Below, piece after piece: positions 22,165-31,125 of a stretch of DNA of 64,000 nucleotides. Positions within the stretch are counted from its first letter, which is position 1. Every line of letters begins with the position of its first letter. The notes beneath the pieces were generated by a model, which was not told where the DNA came from, ran no database searches, and saw only the letters and a program-made list of their open reading frames with translations. The stretch comes from an uncultured Actinomycetes bacterium (GTDB lineage: Bacteria > Actinomycetota > Thermoleophilia > Gaiellales > Gaiellaceae): positions 28,535 through 92,534 of the forward strand of contig CAVTIQ010000004.1 in assembly GCA_963734825.1 (NCBI GenBank). Reading direction: 5' to 3'. Made by a program: the position numbers and the translations under genes.

Positions 22165-22953
22165 GTGGACCCGTACGCGTGGTCGTGGAATCCCGAGGCC
22201 CTCGTCGTCGTCCCGCTCCTCACCCTCGCGTACCTCGTCGCGCTCCGGACCTACCCCGCGCCTCGGTGGCGGGTCGCCTGCTTCCTCGGCGCGATGGCAC
22301 TCGTGCTGGCCGTGAGCGCAACGCCGGTCCACACGCTGGCGATGCACTACCTCCTGACGGTTCATCTGCTGCAGAACGTCGTGCTCGCCGAGTGGGCGCC
22401 GCTGCTCGTCGTCCTCGGGCTTCCACCGGCGCTCGCCGCAGCCATGACGCGCTCCGCTCCGATGCGTGTCCTCACGCACCCGCTCGTCGCGCTTCCGCTC
22501 TGGCTCGCGAACTACATGGTCTGGCACCTGCCGTGGGTCTACGACGCGGCACTCGAGAACCCGAACACCGTGCTCCATCTCGAGCACGCGCTCTACTTCG
22601 TCACCGGCGTTCTCATGTGGTGGTGCGTCGTCCAGGACGCCCCGCACCGGCTGGGCGCGGGCGCCCGCGCCGGCTACGTCCTCGCCGCGTTCGTCCTGGG
22701 GAGCCCGATCGGTCTCGTGCTCGCGCTCGTCCCGAGCGCCATCTACGACTTCTACGTCCACGCCCATCACCGGGTGTGGGGACTCTCGGCGCTCGAGGAC
22801 CAGCAGATCGCGGGCGTCCTGATGTCCGTGGAGCAGGCAGCCGTGTTCTTCGCGGTCTTCGCGTTCTGGTTCCTGCGCTTCCTGGAAGACGAGGAGCGGC
22901 GAGCGGACGAGGACGGCCTCGACGCGCAGTACCCTCAGGGAACGCGCCCGTAG
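22165..22953 (+). CDS. ctaG: cytochrome c oxidase assembly protein CtaG (Caa3_CtaG membrane family)
   Basis: 262 aa polytopic protein. HYLLTVHLLQNVVLAEWAPLL...WHLPWVYDAAL...HLEHALYFVTGVLMWW fits the family. The stop TAG lies inside tRNA-Arg. Confidence 0.75.
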   Translation: MDPYAWSWNPEALVVVPLLTLAYLVALRTYPAPRWRVACFLGAMALVLAVSATPVHTLAMHYLLTVHLLQNVVLAEWAPLLVVLGLPPALAAAMTRSAPMRVLTHPLVALPLWLANYMVWHLPWVYDAALENPNTVLHLEHALYFVTGVLMWWCVVQDAPHRLGAGARAGYVLAAFVLGSPIGLVLALVPSAIYDFYVHAHHRVWGLSALEDQQIAGVLMSVEQAAVFFAVFAFWFLRFLEDEERRADEDGLDAQYPQGTRP

Positions 22954-23016
22954 CTCAGTGGACAGAGCGGCGGACTTCTAATCCGCGGGTCGGAGGTTCG
23001 AATCCTCCCGGGCGCA
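22944..23016 (+). tRNA. tRNA-Arg (anticodon TCT)
   Basis: GCGCCCG-TA-GCTC..GAGC-GCGGA-CTTCTAA-TCCGC-GGGTC-GGAGG-TTCGAAT-CCTCC-CGGGCGC-A. 73 nt. Confidence 0.9.
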
Positions 23017-23051
23017 CTGCCCTCGCGTCGCCTGGACTAACGTTGAGAGCC

Positions 23052-23955
23052 GTGACGGTCAGCAATCCCCAAGGCGGACTGTTCGCCCTCGGTACGGCGT
23101 CGCATGCCTATCTCGAGTTCGACGCCGACCCCGGCGCTGCGACGCGCGACCTGGTCGCTGCGATCTCGTCGCTGCGCGAGCCGAGGACGACCATGGGCGG
23201 CGTGAACTTCGTCGCGGCTTCCGGCCCGAGCTGTGGCGCGAGCTCATGCCTGCCGATGCGCCCGCCGGCCTCGCCGGCTTCAACGAGGACGTCGTCGGTG
23301 TGGACGGCTTCACGATGCCGGCGACCCAGCACGATGCTGTGCTCTGGCTCTCGGGGAGCGCGTACGACGTTGTGTTCGACGTCGGGCGGAGCGCGATCGT
23401 CGCGCTCGACGGGGTGGCCACGCTCGTCGCGGAGACGTCCAGCTGGCCGTACCGTCACGACCTCGACCTGACCGGGTTCATCGACGGGACCGAGAATCCG
23501 ACGCTCCTCGAGGCACCGCAGGTCGTGCTCGTTCCGGACGGCGAGCCTGGATCCAGTGGGACGGTCCTGCTGCTTCAGAAGTGGGCGCACGACGCGACCG
23601 CCTGGGAGTGCGTTGCCGGTCGACGAGCAGGAGCTCGTGATCGGCAGGCGGAAGATCGACAGCGAGGAGCTCGAGGACAAGCCGGACGACTCGCATGTCG
23701 CGAGCACGGATCAGGATCGGTTCGGCGACATCTTCCGCCGGAACACGCCGTACGGCACGATCGCCGACCACGGCACGATGTTCGTGGGGTTCTGCTCCAC
23801 GCGCGAGCCGCTGGCAGACGATGCTCGAGAGCATGGCGGGCCTGACCAGTGGCACACGCGATGCGTTGACGCGGTACACGACGCCGTTGAGCGGCGCCTA
23901 CTACTTCGTCCCGTCGGCCGAGGCGCTCATGCGCGCCGGCGACTCACTCGGCTGA
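23052..23955 (+). pseudogene. Dyp-type (YfeX/EfeB-like) peroxidase with three frameshifts
   Basis: Family sequence runs through frames 0, 2, 0, 1. Segments: VTVSNPQGGLFALGTASHAYLEFD...GGVNFVA | FRPELWRELMPA...GFIDGTENP...LLLQKWAHDATAWE | ALPVDEQELVIGRRKIDSEEL...SHVASTDQ...IFRRNTPYG...GTMFVGFCSTREPLA | MLESMAGLTSGTRDALTRYTTPLSGAYYFVPS. Jumps are at about 23217-23219, 23609 and 23811-23820. 904 nt = 903+1. Confidence 0.85.
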
Positions 23956-23993
23956 CGCGCTCAGAGTCCGTGAAGTACGCCCCTGGCCCCTCC

Positions 23994-24113
23994 CTTGGGG
24001 AGGAGCTGCTCATCAGCGAGACCACCGTGAAGACGCACGTGACGCACATCCTCTCGAAGCTCGAACTCCGGGATCGTGTGCAGGCGGTCGTGCTCGAGTA
24101 CCAGACCGGGCTC
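23994..24113 (+). pseudogene. orphan C-terminal LuxR/GerE helix-turn-helix remnant (NarL-type response-regulator tail)
   Basis: LGEELLISETTVKTHVTHILSKLELRDRVQAVVLEYQTGL is in frame with track ORF 23556..24167. No receiver domain or plausible start lies upstream; the Dyp gene ends at 23955. Confidence 0.5.
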
Positions 24114-24177
24114 GATCTCGGGCGACGCGTTGCGGTCAACCAGTCACGACGCAGCGTGACTGCTTGAACGCCGCACG

Positions 24178-24250
24178 TCTCGGATCGCTGAAAGGCGGAG
24201 CAGGCGGACGTCTAATCCGCGGGTCGCAGGTTCGAATCCTGCCGGGCGCA
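24178..24250 (+). pseudogene. degenerate copy of tRNA-Arg(TCT); the 3' 48 nt are conserved and the 5' part is eroded
   Basis: 24203-24250 matches 22969-23016 at 45/48 positions. Two of the three differences are a compensatory G:C to C:G swap in the T stem. The 5' acceptor strand (TCTCGGA) cannot pair with CGGGCGC, and position 33 is G. Confidence 0.7.
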
Positions 24251-24427
24251 TCCCTGTATCGGCCCCGATTTCAAACGAATTGCCCGCAAATGAGCCGCAC
24301 TTTGCCGCGAGCACGGTTGCTGAGCCGGCGTGCTCGAGCCCACTGAGGTCGCACGGGTCTCAGCAGGGTCGGCCGGCGCCTCGACCCATCGCCGAACCCG
24401 CCACCCCGAGGCAGTTGCCGCGCTGGT

Positions 24428-27329
24428 CTACGGCGCGCGGTCGGCGCGCTCGACGACGCGCGCCACTTCCACGCGCGATGCGACGCCGAGCTTGCGGAAG
24501 GTGTTGCGCAGGTGGGTTTCGACCGTCTTCGAGCTGAGAAAGAGCTCGGCCGCGATCTGAGGGTTGGTCTTTCGGTCGACGACGAGTCGAGCGATCTGAA
24601 GCTCGCGCTCGGTGAGCGACTCGACGCCTGATCCATCTGCCTTGCCCGGGCGGGTGCGCCGGTGGACCGACCGTCCGAGCTTCCGGAGCTCCCGTTCGGC
24701 CTGCTGTCGATAGCGGTGCGAGCCGAAGGACTCGAACGCCGCCGCAGCGAGCTCCAGCTCGGCCGCTGCGCGATCAGGCTCGGCCGCCTCGGCGAGCGCT
24801 TGACCGGCGATCAGCCGCGACGTTGCGGCGTCGAAGACGTTCCCGACCTCCTCGAGCGCCGCTGCAGCGCTCAGCGCCCGCTCGGCCGCGGCCGACGGCT
24901 CGCCGTCGTCGAGATCGAGCGCCGCGGCGGCGAGGGCTGCCATCGCGCCCGCCATCGGGAGACCCACGGTCTCGGCGCAGACCTGCGCAGCCGCTGCGGC
25001 GTGCTCGGCTTCGTCGCGCCGACCCGCCGCGAGGAAAGCAGCGGGTGAGAAGCTCGAGGTACCTGGCCCGCCAACCTCCTCCGATCAACCGCAGCTCGTT
25101 CCCGCCGGCGAACTCCACGAACAACTCGGCACACCGCTCTGGGTGGCCCGTCTCGAGTCGTGCGTAGGCCAGTGCGACCGCCGCGTGCGCAGGGACTGGA
25201 CCGGGGTCGAGCTGCTGCGCGAGATCGAACGCCTCTACTGCGGTCGCGAGCGCCAGGTCGATGTCACCGGCAGCGAACGCTGCGTAGGAGCGGTTGAAGA
25301 GGTTCCAGGCGAGCCCTTGCGGGTTGTCGACCAGACGCGCGGCTGCGATCGCGCCGTCGAGCACCTCGCCTGCCTCCGCCATCCGGCCTCGAACCCAGAG
25401 GCTGCCTCCGAGCATGGGGACGATGAGCGGGAAGAGATCGCCCTTTCCGATGGTACGGCCGATCCTCAGCGCGCGCTCGGCGTGAGACCCTGCCCCTGCG
25501 AAGTTCTCGAGGTAGAACTCGGCCGTGGCCTGATGCGCGAGCGCGTCGAGCCGACCGCCGATTTCGTCGTCCGCGAGACCGTCAATGAGCACGGCGGCGT
25601 CGGCGGAATATCTCAGCCCCTCAGCCGCGCGACCCCCAACCGCACTTGCGAGGGCACGTCCAGCGAGCGCCGCTGCGAGCAGCGCCTGATCGCCGAGCAG
25701 CTCGGCCGCGTCGACCGCCCGGCCAGCCCAGGTCCGCATCGCGTCGTAGTCGCCGCGGTAGAGGCTGTCACCGACGAGCTCGATCATCAGCTCGACACCT
25801 TCCGCGGAAGCGGGGTCTCGGAGCTCGGCGAGCGCAGCCTCGAGGTGGGCGTGCGCCTCGTTGTACCGGCCGAGGAGGTGCTCGACGCGCGCACACGCAG
25901 CGGTGAGGCGGACGCGCAACGACTCTGCCTCCTGCGGGACGATGGTCATGCTCTCGAGGAGTGCTGCGTGGCTCTCCCCGAGCTGGCCGGTGGCGGCGAG
26001 CGCCTCGGAACGGGCCAGCAGCAGCTCGACGCGCCGGTCGCCCGGCGCAGCCGCCGGGAGGAGACGGAGGGCGGCCGCGAACCATCGCGCAGCGCTCGCG
26101 GGCGCACGGGGGGCCGCCGCCAATCCAGCCTCGCGCAGCAGCGCAACCGCGGCCTCGTCGCCCTGACGCGCGGAGCGTTCGACGTGGTGCGCGATCGCCG
26201 AGGTCAGTGAACCTCGGCGGGCAAGAGCGTCGGCGCAGCGCTCGTGCGCACCGAGCCGCCAGCCGCCGGGCATCGACTCATACACCGCGCGGCGCACGAG
26301 CGGATGTCGGAACCGGAAACGCCGGGGAACGTCCGTCGGGCGGACGAGATCCAGGCGCAGCAGCTCGTCGAGCGCGTCGATCGCTGGAGCCTCGGCGGTG
26401 CTGGCGGCCGCTGCGGCCAGCTCGGGGTCGAAGGGGTCTCCCGCGACGGCGGCGCCCTCGAGGATGAGGCGTGCCTGCTCGGAGAGCAGAGCGAGCTCCT
26501 CAGTGAGCGCGGCGGCGACTGCAGCGGGTACGTCAACGCCTGCGAGCGCAGGCTCGTCGGGCGGTGCAGGCATGTCGGAACGGCTGGCCGACCGTGCGAG
26601 CTGCTCGAGGTAGAAGGGATTGCCGCCGCTGTCTTCGTAGAGGCTGGTTGCGTCCATTCGGTCGCCGATCAGCTCGCGGGCGTCCTCGGGGCTCAGCGCC
26701 CTCAGTTCAATGCGCACGATCGTGCCGGCGCGGTGCGCCCGTTCAACCGCAGAGCTGAGCCGCTCGCCCATCTGTCGCGGCCGCACCGCCATCGCGATGA
26801 ATACTCGAGCCGCGGGCGGTCGATGGAGGAGCGCACTGAGCAGCTCGACCGACGCCGAATCTGCCCAGTGGACGTCGTCGAGCACGAGTACCAGCGGCTG
26901 GGTCTGCGCGAGTGTCTCGAGCAGTGTGCAAACGGCGCGGTGGCTGCGGTAGCGCTCGTGCTGGATCGCCGTCCTGCGCCCGATCGCGAGGCTTGCCAAT
27001 GATGGGAAGACGGTCGCGAGTTCTGCGCGTACATCACCGTCGAGGCCGTCGAGGCGCTGCGGGTCGAGGCCGTGGACGTACTCGTCGAGCGCGTCGACGA
27101 AGACCCAGAACGGCAAGTCGAGCTCGAGCTCCCCGGCCCGCCCCGAGAGGACGAGGTACCCGCGCGCGTCGGCACGGGCGGCAAGCTCGGCGAGGAGGCG
27201 CGTCTTGCCGATTCCCGGCTCGCCGACCAACTCGAGCGCCGCGGATTCTCCCCCGCCGACTTGGGCGAGGAGACGGTCGACCGAATCGACCTCTGACGCG
27301 CGTCCGACGAGGTGGGTGGCAAGTGTCAT
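24428..27329 (-). pseudogene. LAL/MalT-type large ATP-binding LuxR-family regulator, one frameshift near 25040
   Basis: N-terminus LELVGEPGIGKTRLLAEL (P-loop), a long TPR-like middle, and a C-terminal LTERELQIARLVVDRKTNPQIAAELFLSSKTVETHLRNTFRKLGV (LuxR HTH) in a different frame (track ORFs 24774..27329 and 24428..24967). The hand-read joining frame gives ...YLELLTR|AFLAAGRRDEAEHAAAAAQVCAETVGLPMAG. 2902 nt = 2901+1. Confidence 0.85.
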
Positions 27330-27354
27330 CTGTGGCTTTCGGATTCACCCTAGA

Positions 27355-27396
27355 TCAGGGCTGGTGGATCGAGAAATCAGGGTGGCCGATTCAGGG
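27355..27396. promoter_or_regulatory. three direct TCAGGG(Y)(K)G repeats in the divergent LAL / small-protein intergenic region
   Basis: gATCAGGGCTGG (27355), aATCAGGGTGGC (27377), aTTCAGGGTGCC (27391), all inside the 113-nt gap between 27329 and 27443. Confidence 0.3.
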
Positions 27397-27442
27397 TGCC
27401 CGCCCGATGTGGGGCCGACGGCTCCGCGGCATTGTCGGACAC

Positions 27443-27685
27443 ATGCCCAGCTACCTGCTTCACCACCACCACGAGCCGAACGAGTGCGGCGTTGCCTTCG
27501 CCGCCTTCCGCGGCTTCGAGAGCCCGCTTCGTCACAAGGGCGCGCTGGCCTCCTGCCATTCCGGCGGCCATTCGATGTGGTGGACGGTGGACGCCTCAAG
27601 CGAGGAGAACGCGCTCGCGCAGTTGCCCTACTTCGTCGCCGAGCGCACAACGGCCGTCCCGGTCAACGAGGTGCTGATCCCGTGA
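27443..27685 (+). CDS. small conserved hypothetical protein (80 aa), His/Cys-rich
   Basis: MPSYLLHHHHEPNECGVAFAAFRGFESPLRHKGALASCHSGGHSMWWTVDA...LPYFVAERTTAVPVNEVLIP. High GC3. Resembles a small actinobacterial protein family I recall only as hypothetical. Confidence 0.55.
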   Translation: MPSYLLHHHHEPNECGVAFAAFRGFESPLRHKGALASCHSGGHSMWWTVDASSEENALAQLPYFVAERTTAVPVNEVLIP

Positions 27686-27720
27686 CCGTCCGACGCAGCC
27701 GCAACCCAGAAGGAGGAGTC

Positions 27721-27999
27721 ATGAGCGCACCTTGTCAGCACGACACCTGGAGCGAGCTCGCGGTCCGCGAGAACGACGGCCTCGCGGTCTCGCTCTTCTG
27801 GAGCAAGGCAACTGACCGCGTGCGAGTCGTCGTCGTCGACCAGATGTTCAAGGAGGAGCTCCACGTCGACGTCCCCGCCGCGTGTGCCCTGGATGCCTAC
27901 TACCACCCGTTCGCCTATGCGGCCGGACGCGGACTCGAACCCAGTTACGGCATTTCCGAGCCCTCGACGCCTAGCCATCCCGAAAGGAGCGCAGCCTGA
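27721..27999 (+). CDS. small conserved hypothetical protein (92 aa)
   Basis: GAAGGAGGAGTC precedes ATG 27721. Product: MSAPCQHDTWSELAVRENDGLAVSLFWSKATDRVRVVVVDQMFKEELHVDVPAACALDAYYHPFAYAA... The stop overlaps the MFS ATG (TGATG). Confidence 0.55.
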   Translation: MSAPCQHDTWSELAVRENDGLAVSLFWSKATDRVRVVVVDQMFKEELHVDVPAACALDAYYHPFAYAAGRGLEPSYGISEPSTPSHPERSAA

Positions 28000-29567
28000 T
28001 GACGATCGACCCCATCCAGCACGCCCGTCGTTGGAAGACGCTCGGCGTGCTCTCGCTGAGCCTGGTGATCATCGGGCTCGACAACACCATTCTCAACGTC
28101 GCTCTTCCGACGCTGCAGGACGAGTTCGACGCCTCCGCTTCGAAGCTGCAGTGGATGGTCGACTCCTATCTATTGGTCTTCGCGGGCTTGCTGCTCCTCT
28201 TCGGCACGCTCGGCGATCGCTTCGGGCGCAAGCTGGCGCTGCAGGCCGGCGTGTCGATCTTCGGGCTCGCGAGTCTCGGCGCTCTCGTCGCGGACTCGGC
28301 TGACCAGGTCATCGTGGTCCGCGCGGCGATGGGTGTCGGCGCGGCGTTGATCATGCCCGCCACGCTCTCGATCATCGCCAACGTCTTCACCGGCGAGGAG
28401 CGCGGTAAGGCGATCGCGATCTGGGCCGCCCTGGCGGCGGTGGGGATCGGGCTCGGCCCGCTGGCGGGCGGACTGCTGCTCGAGTGGTTCGACTGGCCGT
28501 CCGTGTTCCTGGTCAACGTGCCGTTCGCGGTCGCGGCGCTGCTGCTCGGCATCCGCTACGTGCCCGAGAGCCGTGATCCCCAGCCAGGCTCGTTCGACCT
28601 GCTCGGTGCCGCACTCTCGGCCGCCGGCTTCAGCATCCTCGTGTACGCGATCATCGAGGCGCCCGAGCACGGTTGGACCTCCGGTCTCGTGCTCGGATCG
28701 CTCGCGGTGAGCGTTGCGCTGCTGGGCTCCTTCCTCTGGTGGGAGTCGCGCATCAAGGATCCGATGCTCGACCTCGGCTTCTTCCGCAACGCTCGTTTCA
28801 GCGTGGGCACAGCGGCCGTCAGCGTCGCCTTCTTCGCGATGCTCGGCGCGATCTTCGTGCTGACCCAGTACCTGCAGTTCGCTCACGGGTACAGCGCGAT
28901 CGAGGCGGGCGCGATCATGAGCCCAATGGCGCTCGGGCTGATGCTCGGCGCCGGCTCATCGAGCAAGGCCGTGCACCGGCTCGGCACCGCACGCGTCGTC
29001 ACAGCTGGTCTGGCCGGGCTCGCGCTCCTCTTGGCGCTGACGATGCTCTGGGAGTCGAACACCGGCGCACTCGTGCTCGCTGCCTGGTTCTTCGGGCTTG
29101 CACTCTCGATGGGCTGGGTGATGGCACCCGCAACGGAAGCCGTCGTCGGAGCGGTGCCGGCCGCAAAGTCCGGCGTCGCCTCGGCCACGAACACCGTCGC
29201 GCGGATGGTCTCGGGGGCGCTCGGCGTGGCGGTGATCGGCTCGCTCGTCGGCTCCATCTACTCGAACGACGTCGATGGCTCGCTCGATGCTCTACCTCCG
29301 GAGGCGCAGGCCGCCGCAGAGAGCTCGATCGGCGCCGCGAGCGCGATTGCTTCCCAGCTCCCATCGGGCGCGGCCTCCCACCTGCTCGCCACGACGGGCG
29401 ACGCCTTCACGCAGGCAATGGGCTTGGGCCTCCTCGTCGCCGCGGCACTTGCTGCCGCCACGGCGGTGATCGTGGCTCGTCTCATGCCGTCGAGCGAGGC
29501 CGTCGCTGCAGCGACGGTCGGCAGCCGAACACCCCGATCGAGGACGCGACGTCGACGGATTGCCACC
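27999..29567 (+). CDS. MFS transporter, DHA2 (EmrB/QacA, 14-TMS) family; there is no stop codon, so the frame continues into the next feature
   Basis: LSLSLVIIGLDNTILNVALPTL, WMVDSYLLVFAGLLLLFGTLGDRFGRK, and 14 hydrophobic segments ending ...GLGLLVAAALAAATAVIVARLMP, followed by the basic linker RTPRSRTRRRRIAT. Confidence 0.8.
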
Positions 29568-31125
29568 ATGGTCGTGCTTGTAGCGCTCGTATTCGCCGGA
29601 GCCCTCTTCGCCAGTCATTCGGGAGCCTCCGATGCCGCTGGCGCCGCTTCGACTACATCGGGAGCACCTTCGGCCGCGCGTGACTTTGGCGCGATAGACG
29701 CGTTCGTCGAAAGCGAGATGGATGCGCAGCGCATCCCGGGCCTGGCCCTCGGGATCGTGGAGGGCGATCGAGTCGTCCACATCCGGGGATTTGGAGAGGC
29801 CGACTCGTCGGGGCGGCCCGTGTTGCCTCAAACGCCATTCGTCATCGGTTCTCTGAGCAAGTCCGTCACTGCCCTCGCGATCATGCAGCTCGTCGAGGCA
29901 GGGAAGGTCGAGCTCGATGCGCCCGTGCGCCGGTACATCCCCTGGTTCCGCGTGGCCGACGAAGAGGCATCAGCTCGAATCACCGTTCGCCACCTGCTGA
30001 ACCAGACCAGTGGCCTGTCGACGAAGACGGGAAGGTCGTTCCAGGGAGACGGCGATACGAGTGCGGGTGCGCTCGAGCGAGCCGTCCGCAAGTTGAGCAC
30101 CGTCGAGCTGACCAAACCGGTCGGTGTCGCCCACCAATACAGCACGATCAACTACTCGGTGCTCGGGCTCGTCGTGCAAACGGTGAGCCGGACAGTCGTA
30201 CGAGCGCTACATCCAGGAGCACATCTTCGGTCCTCTCGAGATGCGGCATTCCTTCACCTCCGAGGCCGAGGCGAAGCCCCAGGGTTTGGCTCGCGGCCAC
30301 CACTACTGGTTCGGCTGGCCCGTCGCCGCGGACCTGCCGTACAACCGCGGCCTTCTCCCTGCCGGCTACCTCATCTCGAGCGCCGAGGACATGTCGCACT
30401 ACCTGATCGCCCAGCTCAATCGCGGTCGGTACGGCGACGCAGCAGTCCTCTCGCCGGCAGGGACAGCCGAACTACACAAGCCTGCCGTCCCAACGCCCGA
30501 ATCCGGGACGTCGTACGGCATGGGCTGGTTCGTCGGGCCGATCAACGGCATCCCTGCGGTCTTTCATCAGGGCGAGACCTTCAACTACCACGCGAACGTC
30601 GTGCTCATCCCCGGAAGCAATCGCGGAGTCGTCGTGCTGATGAATGCCGAGAACTCGGTGGATCTCTTCGTGCGCGGACGCATGGGAACGGTCGCGGAGG
30701 GGGTCGCCAGCCTTCTCGAAGGGCGCGAGCCGCAACCTCCTCCGTCGAGCACGGGCATCTTCGTGGTCTACGCCGCGCTCCTCGGCGTGATCGCTCTCCA
30801 GATCGGCGGGATCGTCCGTTCCGCGGCGGCTCTGCGGCGTCGGCGTCCTCCCTCGGGCCGCTTCGGATGGAAGGTGCGCACGGGCCTCGCGCTGGCGCTG
30901 AACCTCTGCTGGGCGTTCTTCGTTCTCGTGCTGTTGCCGAAGCAATTCGGGTTGTCGCTCCTGACCCTGGCCCAGGGACTACCCGACCTCTCCTATGCAC
31001 TGCTTGCAAGCGGTGTGATCGCACTCGGATGGGGCGTCTCGAGAACCGTGTGGGCCTACTTCGCTTTCCGCCAGGGCGGCGGCGTTCGGCTGACTTCTTC
31101 CCCACCTATCGCCCAGCTGCCGTGA
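29568..31125 (+). pseudogene. membrane-anchored serine hydrolase (beta-lactamase family) with C-terminal TM bundle; in frame with the upstream MFS; one +1 frameshift at about 30189
   Basis: MVVLVALVFAGALFASHSG (TM/signal), FVIGSLSKSVTA (SxxK), YSTINY (YxN). Then ...LGLVVQTVS|GQSYERYIQEHIFGPLEMRHSF... continues in track ORF 30241..31125, which ends with about 4 TM segments. An extra C sits at 30189. Confidence 0.8.

What the first reader, a model, noticed from the sequence alone, without database searches (positions are those of the whole stretch)
22944..24250. tRNA-Arg and a degenerate tRNA-Arg copy bracket a 1.2-kb graveyard (triple-frameshifted Dyp peroxidase plus orphan LuxR tail)
The intact tRNA-Arg(TCT) lies at 22944..23016. 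Its 3' 48 nt recur at 24203..24250 with 45/48 identity.
- Two of the three differences are a compensatory base-pair swap in the T stem (GGAGG/CCTCC versus GCAGG/CCTGC).
- The 5' half of the second copy is eroded: the acceptor cannot pair, the D stem has a mismatch, and G replaces U33.

Direct repeats of a tRNA 3' half are the classic scars (attL/attR) of integrase-mediated insertion. Here they enclose only a decayed Dyp gene and a 40-aa LuxR HTH remnant. That is consistent with an old integrated element, or a tRNA gene duplication, that has since been eroded.

The region to the right (24.4-42 kb) is the most pseudogene-rich, accessory part of the window.
Basis: partly seen in the sequence, partly recalled or inferred. 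Interest (0 to 1): 0.6.

Follow-up and report, generated by a model that had tools for sequence, protein, structure and literature searches.

The report
Integration scar at a tRNA-Arg hotspot
The partial second copy of tRNA-Arg is the ordinary scar left when foreign DNA inserted into the tRNA gene; this tRNA is a recurrent insertion site across the whole genus (uncultured soil Gaiellaceae), so the case is a good example of a known process and not a new one.

Summary
An intact tRNA-Arg(TCT) lies at 22944-23016. Its last 48 nt recur at 24203-24250 with 45/48 identity. This second copy is not a tRNA gene.

- The T-stem "compensatory swap" did not evolve in place. GGAGG/CCTCC and GCAGG/CCTGC are both common alleles of the intact tRNA in the genus (18 and 19 of 37). 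The inserted DNA therefore rewrote the 3' half of the tRNA, and the fragment keeps the earlier allele.
- The "eroded 5' half" is the arm of the inserted element. Thirty-eight fragments from relatives lose similarity to the tRNA at the same point, around positions 26-29.
- A relative, G014, shows the empty site: its intact tRNA with the GCAGG allele runs directly into the sequence found right of 24250.
- The copy is also the left junction of the accessory island to its right.

No integrase lies on this contig. In the genus, 30 of 87 genomes carry arrays of 2-7 copies that separate cargo modules almost always lacking an integrase. A metagenomic phage carries a tyrosine integrase next to the matching attP.

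The three Dyp frameshifts are present in the sequence.

This is a new member of a known kind, of modest interest.

The parts
22944..23016 (+). Intact tRNA-Arg(TCT) with T-stem allele GGAGG/CCTCC. By the integration model its 3' part, downstream of the crossover, was supplied by the inserted DNA.
   Evidence: ARAGORN; Rfam 75.3 bits; allele survey.
22969..23016 (+). Left copy of the 48-nt direct repeat (the att core inside the tRNA, positions 26-73).
23052..23955 (+). Dyp-type peroxidase gene, complete from start to stop but read in three frames. The indels are -1 near 23215, +1 near 23610 and +1 near 23815.
   Evidence: DNA alignment with intact orthologues from G006, G014 and G038; tblastn; Pfam pieces; no excess amino-acid change.
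23956..23996 (+). Junction stretch between the Dyp stop and the start of regulator homology. It has no homology to the regulator genes of relatives. The deletion or rearrangement breakpoint lies at about 23990-24005.
   Evidence: Alignment with G021, G004 and G009; match limits.
23997..24167 (+). The 3' end only (last 30 residues of the HTH domain plus a tail) of a NarL-type LuxR-family response-regulator gene. The tail is itself shifted by a 1-nt indel relative to relatives.
   Evidence: Pfam GerE positions 27-56/57; alignment.
24168..24202 (+). Element arm (P arm) left of the att core. It includes a D-arm-like stretch, GCTGAAAGGCGGAGCA. Similar arms sit before fragments in G006 and G066.
   Evidence: Rfam partial match 24187-24242; flank comparison, score 17 against a shuffle mean of 8.6 (sd 1.6) and a shuffle maximum of 17.
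24203..24250 (+). Right copy of the repeat: a displaced tRNA 3' half with allele GCAGG/CCTGC and G at position 33. It is attR of the 1.2-kb islet and, at the same time, the left junction of the island to the right.
24251..24297 (+). Flank homologous to the sequence that directly follows the intact tRNA-Arg in G014, G024 and G011. It contains the motif GCCCGCAAATGAGCC.
   Evidence: BLASTN, 86% over 100 nt to G014 and 82% over 95 nt to G024; local score 24 against a shuffle mean of 9.3 (sd 1.8).
24428..31125 (.). Context: a large LuxR-family regulator (AAA_16-TPR-GerE, minus strand, one frameshift) transcribed divergently from an MFS-serine hydrolase gene (plus strand). In G006 the homologous pair is the whole content of a module lying between tRNA-Arg and its repeat.
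   Evidence: Pfam; BLASTN, 79% over 3.3 kb to L035; ORFs of L035.

Best explanation
The 48-nt copy at 24203-24250 is the displaced original 3' half of tRNA-Arg(TCT). DNA carrying an attP-like site, which included its own copy of the tRNA 3' half, recombined with the tRNA gene, most likely through a tyrosine integrase. The crossover fell between tRNA positions 33 and 50. The working tRNA at 22944-23016 is therefore a hybrid: its 5' part is resident, and its 3' part (GGAGG/CCTCC allele) was imported. The old 3' half (GCAGG/CCTGC allele) was pushed 1.2 kb downstream, still attached to its former downstream flank.

What now lies between the copies is integrase-less cargo: a Dyp peroxidase gene and the last part of a response-regulator gene. 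At least one internal deletion has shaped it. The sequence to the right of the copy is itself an older accessory module, so the locus is a small tandem array.

Shown directly: the repeat, the two alleles, the shared fragment boundary, the empty-site homologue, the lack of an integrase nearby, and a phage with int next to a matching attP.

Inferred: the order of events, the position of the crossover, and whether the islet lost its own integrase or was moved by one supplied in trans.
For: - The repeat is real and unique in the genome.
- Both T-stem alleles occur in intact tRNA-Arg(TCT) genes of the genus: 19 GCAGG and 18 GGAGG among 37 distinct loci (list).
- Thirty of 87 genomes with a hit carry 2-7 copies on one contig and strand, spaced 0.2-74 kb. 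Many of these arrays mix the two alleles.
- Thirty-eight fragments are 95-100% identical to the tRNA from position 37 on (partly a consequence of how they were selected). Identity falls to 76-79% at positions 26-28, to 32-79% at positions 19-25, and to about background at positions 18 and below. The boundary is therefore a fixed one.
- G014 has the intact GCAGG-allele tRNA directly followed by the homologue of window 24251-24297, which is the empty site.
- The islet's right end resembles a junction in G021, where a full-length regulator gene and its 3' flank (80% identical to window 24003-24150) are followed by an att fragment.
- A 3.5-kb module in G081 and G119 is 92-96% identical. The homology starts and stops exactly at the att cores, and the flanks are unrelated. 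Such modules therefore move as units.
- An IMG/VR phage contig of 37.4 kb with terminal repeats has a tyrosine integrase (PF00589, 60.9 bits). About 290 nt after that gene lies a copy of the tRNA 3' end, identical from about position 28 to position 73, the same boundary as the genomic fragments.
Against: - No tyrosine integrase lies on the window's 130-kb contig.
- None was found in 892 kb around tRNA-Arg in relatives by tblastn with 7 queries.
- HMM searches of 10 relatives found only one integrase inside an array, and none of the five searched had a serine recombinase there.
- The flank just after the intact tRNA (23017-23051) lacks the CCTGCAAAT motif that follows most att copies in the genus.
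- No terminal repeat closes the island to the right.
- Recombination has not been observed; everything rests on comparative sequence.
Confidence: 0.8

Rival explanations
1. The 1.2-kb islet never had its own integrase. It is one of many att-delimited cargo modules in this genus that are excised, carried and re-inserted by an integrase supplied in trans, for example by a temperate phage using the same tRNA-Arg site (cis-mobilisation after tandem accretion). This refines the best explanation and does not oppose it.
For: - Modules between att copies in relatives carry unrelated cargo and almost never a recombinase.
- Conserved arms flank the cores: about 100 nt on the left and about 45 nt on the right.
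- The G081/G119 module is bounded exactly by att sites.
- A phage carries int next to a matching attP.
- Many modules are small, 0.2-8 kb.
Against: - The truncated regulator gene shows that this particular islet has suffered a deletion, so an integrase could have been lost with it.
- No excision product or helper element has been observed.
- tblastn can miss very divergent recombinases.
Confidence: 0.35
2. The second copy is the eroded remnant of a tandem duplication of the whole tRNA-Arg gene.
For: Weak similarity extends back to the D arm: Rfam model positions 10-63 at 21.1 bits; local alignment.
Against: - The acceptor 5' strand is absent, pairing at 2 of 7 positions.
- The same D-arm-like stretch occurs in the arms of fragments in G006, G088, G099 and G012.
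- The boundary is shared by 38 fragments.
- The T stem carries a different, naturally occurring allele and not random decay.
- G014 provides an empty site.
Confidence: 0.04
3. The arrangement is an assembly artefact: a chimeric join of two strains or species at the shared tRNA sequence in a metagenome-assembled genome.
For: Relatives are metagenome-assembled genomes, many from Nanopore-only assemblies (PMC12313526). The two alleles exist in different species.
Against: - A chimeric join would not create a tRNA fragment with an element arm.
- The same architecture recurs in 30 genomes from short-read and long-read assemblies.
- The repeat spacing of 1.2 kb is far below long-read length.
Confidence: 0.03
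4. Side question: the three Dyp frameshifts are consensus errors of a long-read assembly in a strain-variable, low-coverage region, and the gene is intact in the organism.
For: - Read across the shifts, the protein has only 7 lineage-specific changes at sites invariant in three intact orthologues. Those orthologues show 7, 13 and 20 such changes, so constraint has not been relaxed.
- There are no in-frame stops.
- MAGs of this kind were polished with a single Medaka round (PMC12313526).
Against: - Elsewhere in the genome, sampled genes show few frame breaks: about 2 in about 68 kb on other contigs.
- The indels are not in long homopolymers.
- The neighbouring regulator gene is truly truncated.
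- Whether this genome is itself a Nanopore assembly is not told.
Confidence: 0.5

Closest known systems
Genomic islands and prophages integrated in the 3' end of tRNA genes by tyrosine integrases (attL/attR direct repeats)
   Same: An intact tRNA on one side and a direct repeat of its 3' part on the other. The tRNA is reconstituted by the element's copy. The repeat boundary lies in the anticodon arm. A phage with int next to a matching attP exists.
   Different: There is no integrase in or near the islet or on the contig. The insert is only 1.2 kb of cargo.
CIMEs (cis-mobilizable elements) and tandem accretion, described for ICESt1-related elements of Streptococcus thermophilus and reviewed in PMC5704250
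   Same: The elements keep attL and attR but lack integration and transfer genes, and they sit in tandem arrays at one tRNA or gene end. This is the definition quoted.
   Different: Derivation from a decayed ICE or IME is not shown here. The cargo is ordinary metabolic and regulatory genes. The host is an uncultured Gaiellaceae lineage. Mobilisation has not been tested.
Microbacterium phage Min1 (EF579802.1)
   Same: A temperate actinobacterial phage with a tRNA-Arg-like stretch, 82.5% identical over 57 nt, at the 3' end of its integrase gene, in the same orientation.
   Different: Different host group and only moderate identity. It was not found in this genus.
Integron cassette arrays
   Same: Arrays of promoter-poor cargo units separated by a repeated recombination site, with the recombinase absent from the units.
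   Different: No integrase gene is fixed at the head of the array: the upstream genes are ctaG and, in some relatives, a PhoD-like gene. The sites are tRNA halves with arms and not attC hairpins. Modules reach tens of kb.

Membership tests
tRNA-targeted integration scar (attL/attR) | Direct repeat identical or nearly identical to the 3' part of an adjacent intact tRNA gene, in the same orientation | tested here: met
   45/48 identity, a unique pair in the genome.
tRNA-targeted integration scar (attL/attR) | The repeat boundary is fixed and shared by independent insertions at the same tRNA | tested here: met
   Thirty-eight fragments lose identity to the tRNA at positions 26-29. The fragments were selected with a pattern covering positions 37-73, so only the left boundary is informative.
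tRNA-targeted integration scar (attL/attR) | An empty site exists in a relative | tested here: met
   In G014 the intact tRNA (GCAGG allele) is directly followed by the homologue of 24251-24297. G014 is a different species, so this is homology and not identity.
tRNA-targeted integration scar (attL/attR) | A cognate integrase is encoded within or next to the insert | tested here: not met
   No PF00589 hit on contig C4. The islet holds only the Dyp gene and a regulator tail.
tRNA-targeted integration scar (attL/attR) | A free element carries attP with the same core next to an integrase | tested here: met
   IMG/VR UViG_3300036900_000306: the core lies about 290 nt after the integrase gene. Its activity on this site has not been tested.
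CIME (cis-mobilizable element) | Retains attL and attR but has no integration or transfer genes | tested here: met
   definition from PMC5704250.
CIME (cis-mobilizable element) | Derived by decay from an ICE or IME | tested here: inconclusive
   A deletion breakpoint is present, but no relic of conjugation or integration genes.
CIME (cis-mobilizable element) | Can be excised and transferred with a helper element | not testable with these tools
   The only evidence is indirect: the G081/G119 module is bounded exactly by att sites.
Functional tRNA gene (second copy) | Full cloverleaf that scores above detection thresholds | tested here: not met
   ARAGORN gives no call. Rfam gives 21.1 bits, below the 29-bit cut-off, with no acceptor stem.
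Intact Dyp-type peroxidase gene | A single open frame covering the Dyp domain | tested here: not met
   The domain is split over three frames. Whether this reflects the organism or the assembly is open.
Integron-like array | An integrase gene and a primary site at the head of the array | tested here: not met
   The upstream neighbours are tRNA-Gly and ctaG, plus a PhoD-like gene in some relatives.

The most novel reading that the evidence does not exclude
In this Gaiellaceae genus, tRNA-Arg(TCT) heads an array of att-delimited cargo modules that lack an integrase. The modules are exchanged between species as discrete units by a phage-type tyrosine integrase acting in trans. Each arrival rewrites the 3' half of the tRNA, so the tRNA's T-stem allele is itself inherited horizontally. 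The window's islet would be one decayed unit of such a system.
Probability: 0.3. Interest if true: 0.55.

Novelty: new member of a known kind. Interest (0 to 1): 0.32.

Why it matters
For this window, the result explains the odd second tRNA piece. It also marks where the stable chromosome ends (ctaG and tRNA-Arg) and the accessory DNA begins. The "compensatory mutation" turns out to record DNA exchange between species and not local RNA evolution.

More broadly, Gaiellaceae are abundant soil bacteria, known here only from metagenome-assembled genomes, and their mobile elements are essentially undescribed. A single tRNA that collects integrase-less gene modules in about a third of the genomes would be a useful handle on how these organisms trade accessory genes. 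It would also be a ready marker for finding islands in their genomes.

The Dyp result is a caution: frame breaks in long-read metagenome assemblies should not be read as pseudogenes without checking the reads.

Tried and rejected
Neither the three indels nor continuity across the repeat could be checked.
- Third att copy: an nhmmer profile of the core found none that would close the island on the right.
- Downstream synteny: genes downstream of the arrays in relatives map to other contigs of this genome, so there is no conserved downstream backbone to define the far end.
- tblastx of the island against relatives was dominated by high-GC noise and was dropped.
- Cognate integrase: none on the window contig. 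The best genus homologue of the phage integrase (G011, 48% identity) lies on the opposite strand to tRNA-Arg(TCT), so it does not fit this site; a different tRNA-like match lies about 11 kb upstream of it. No serine recombinases lie in the arrays.
- A conserved gene after the tRNA that might be a novel recombinase: none. Downstream ORFs of 19 genomes do not cluster across genomes.
- The 1.5-kb gene between ctaG and the tRNA in some relatives looks like a PhoD-type phosphatase (by eye; not run through Pfam) and not an integrase.
- Dyp context elsewhere: three genus orthologues and 80 metagenome loci have no tRNA-Arg core nearby. Dyp is therefore not a usual passenger at this site.
- Plasmid collection: only generic tRNA-like hits.
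- Base composition: no GC anomaly across the islet or the island.
- Earlier notes of this scan: no look-alike stretch in other genomes.
Full report
**1. The observation**

ARAGORN finds four tRNAs in the window, among them tRNA-Arg(tct) at 22944-23017. Rfam scores 22944-23016 at 75.3 bits. The last 48 nt (22969-23016) occur once more, at 24203-24250, with three mismatches. No shuffle of the window gave a second match, and the pair is also found as a direct repeat.

In the whole 3.5-Mb assembly there are only these two copies.
- T to G at tRNA position 33;
- G to C at position 50, together with C to G at position 64, which keeps that T-stem pair.

The second copy is not a tRNA gene:
- ARAGORN is silent on it.
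- Rfam gives 21.1 bits against a cut-off of 29, covering model positions 10-63 only.
- The stretch that would be the 5' acceptor strand pairs at 2 of 7 positions (read).

**2. What lies between the copies**

A Dyp-type peroxidase gene begins at a GTG at 23052, 36 nt after the tRNA, and ends at 23955. A DNA alignment with intact orthologues from three genomes of the group shows three single-base indels: -1 near 23215, +1 near 23610 and +1 near 23815. It shows no other damage. The four pieces match Pfam Dyp_perox_C positions 3-53, 55-126 and 132-165 in successive frames.

From about 23997 the sequence is the last part of a NarL-type response-regulator gene (GerE positions 27-56 of 57). In G021 a homologous full-length regulator gene and its 3' flank (80% identical to window 24003-24150) are followed by an att fragment. 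Upstream of about 24005 the window has no homology to that gene, so a deletion or rearrangement breakpoint sits there.

**3. The organism and the wider pattern**

Relatives found through the neighbouring ctaG gene are uncultured Gaiellaceae metagenome-assembled genomes, many of them from the Microflora Danica project.

A pattern search for the 40-nt core in 108 genomes of the genus hit 87. Thirty of these have 2-7 copies on one contig and strand, spaced 0.2-74 kb (my count from that list). I fetched more than 30 such loci.
- Intact tRNA-Arg(TCT) genes carry either GGAGG/CCTCC (18 loci) or GCAGG/CCTGC (19 loci), so both T-stem forms are normal alleles.
- Many arrays mix the two alleles, for example G009, G012, G017, G090, G112 and G114.
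- Thirty-eight partial copies, the window's included, lose identity to the tRNA over the same short stretch. Identity is about 76-79% at positions 26-28 and close to background below position 18. A subset keeps a D-arm-like GGACAGAGC. The high identity from position 37 on partly reflects how the fragments were selected, so only the left boundary counts as evidence.

A fixed boundary with conserved non-tRNA arms is what site-specific recombination produces. Erosion of duplicated genes would not produce it.

**4. The empty site and the order of events**

The 47 nt to the right of the window's fragment (24251-24297) are homologous to the sequence that directly follows the intact tRNA-Arg in three relatives:
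- G014: 86% over 100 nt including the core; local score 24 against a shuffle mean of 9.3, sd 1.8;
- G024 and, more weakly, G011.

G014 carries the GCAGG allele, as the window's fragment does. G014 therefore shows the state before the 1.2-kb insertion: tRNA with GCAGG, followed by TCCCTGT...GCAAATGAGCC.

By the standard integration model (established knowledge of tyrosine integrases that target tRNA genes), the DNA to the right of the crossover in the displaced fragment is the old tRNA end. The intact gene now ends in sequence that came with the insert. The differences at positions 33, 50 and 64 place the crossover between positions 33 and 50. This placement is inference.

**5. The region to the right**

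The same flank carries a variant of a motif (CCTGCAAAT and about 30 further conserved nt) that follows most att copies in the genus when another module comes next.

The first genes to the right are a large LuxR-type regulator and, transcribed divergently from it, an MFS-serine hydrolase gene. In G006 the homologous pair (79% over 3.3 kb) is the entire content of a module lying between tRNA-Arg and its repeat, although in the opposite orientation.

The fragment is therefore also the left junction of an older accessory module, and the locus is a small tandem array. I found no repeat closing that module and no conserved downstream backbone.

**6. The missing integrase**

- There is no PF00589 match on the window's 130-kb contig.
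- HMM searches of ten relatives found one tyrosine integrase inside an array (in G012, 11 kb from the nearest att copy). The five of them also searched for serine recombinases had none there.
- tblastn with seven tyrosine recombinases found nothing in 892 kb around tRNA-Arg in relatives.
- The genes following the tRNA differ from genome to genome.

Even so, the modules behave as units. A 3.5-kb module encoding an NmrA-like protein, a MerR/B12-type regulator and a fasciclin protein (family names judged by eye from the translations; not run through Pfam) is 92-96% identical in G081 and G119. The homology starts and stops exactly at the att cores, and the flanks are unrelated.

A source of integrase exists. 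A 37.4-kb IMG/VR phage contig with terminal repeats carries a 419-aa tyrosine integrase. About 290 nt after the gene lies a copy of the tRNA-Arg(TCT) 3' end, in the same orientation and with the same left boundary as the genomic fragments.

This fits the description of cis-mobilizable elements and tandem accretion (PMC5704250). Whether the window's islet lost its own integrase by deletion or never had one is open. I put the second option at about one in three.

**7. Is the Dyp gene really dead?**

For assembly error:
- Read across the shifts, the protein has 7 lineage-specific changes at sites invariant in the three intact orthologues. Those orthologues have 7, 13 and 20, so there is no sign of relaxed constraint.
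- Three independent indels without extra substitutions would be unusual for natural decay but is typical of long-read consensus error (my own knowledge).
- Microflora Danica MAGs are Nanopore-only assemblies polished once with Medaka (PMC12313526).

Against assembly error:
- A sample of genes on other contigs shows only about 2 frame breaks in about 68 kb.
- The indels are not in long homopolymers.
- The neighbouring regulator gene is truly truncated.
- I am not told how this particular genome was sequenced.

I leave this question at even odds.

**8. Verdict**

The repeat is a real att scar at a tRNA that serves as an insertion hotspot across the genus. The tRNA-duplication idea is rejected. 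The compensatory pair is an imported allele. The "eroded 5' half" is element-arm sequence. This is a new example of a well-known kind of feature, found in a poorly studied lineage. The integrase-less arrays across the genus are the part that deserves follow-up.

Noticed in passing
Relatives: L023 1480-5037 (G081) and L027 993-4464 (G119): A 3.5-kb integrase-less module is 92-96% identical in two species. The homology is bounded exactly by the tRNA-Arg att cores, and the flanks are unrelated.
   Followed up: partly
L086 808-2067 and about 2353-2415 (IMG/VR UViG_3300036900_000306): A phage contig with terminal repeats carries a tyrosine integrase, followed about 290 nt later by a copy of the tRNA-Arg(TCT) 3' end identical from about position 28 to 73. 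It is a candidate attP and helper for this site.
   Followed up: partly
After tRNA-Arg in most genus members, e.g. L065 10868-10912 and L082 12400-12444: A conserved stretch of about 45 nt (T.GAA.T.CCTGCAAAT.G.C.ACTTCT...) follows the tRNA and internal att copies, although the genes after it differ in every genome. Its role is unknown; integrase arm site, promoter and RNA are all possible.
   Followed up: partly
window 27999-31125 and L035 1284-4448 (G006): In G006 the MFS transporter and the serine hydrolase form one 1054-aa open frame.
   Followed up: partly
window 24428-27329, minus strand: The large LuxR-family regulator (AAA_16, TPR, GerE) is split between two frames near 24774-25084.
   Followed up: no
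G000 contig C6 883571-884229 (outside the window): A tRNA-like match lies next to a truncated 180-aa tyrosine integrase, which is 40% identical to the phage integrase. This is probably another decayed integration site.
   Followed up: no
G000 contigs C5 about 687079 and C8 about 322020 (outside the window): Two further clean frame breaks occur in genes that are homologous to accessory genes found in relatives' tRNA-Arg modules.
   Followed up: no
Relatives G076, G001, G077, G010 (one search list): Some fragments carry mixed T-stem halves, such as GCAGG with CCTCC. These would mispair, which suggests crossovers or gene conversion inside the T arm between the two alleles.
   Followed up: no
L046 (G014) and loci L009-L020: In many relatives a gene of about 1.5 kb that looks like a PhoD-type phosphatase sits between ctaG and tRNA-Arg. 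It is absent in this window and in G006, G009, G011, G012 and G024.
   Followed up: partly
L053 2501-2557 (Microbacterium phage Min1, EF579802.1): A tRNA-Arg-like stretch, 82.5% identical over 57 nt, overlaps the 3' end of the phage's integrase gene in the same orientation.
   Followed up: no
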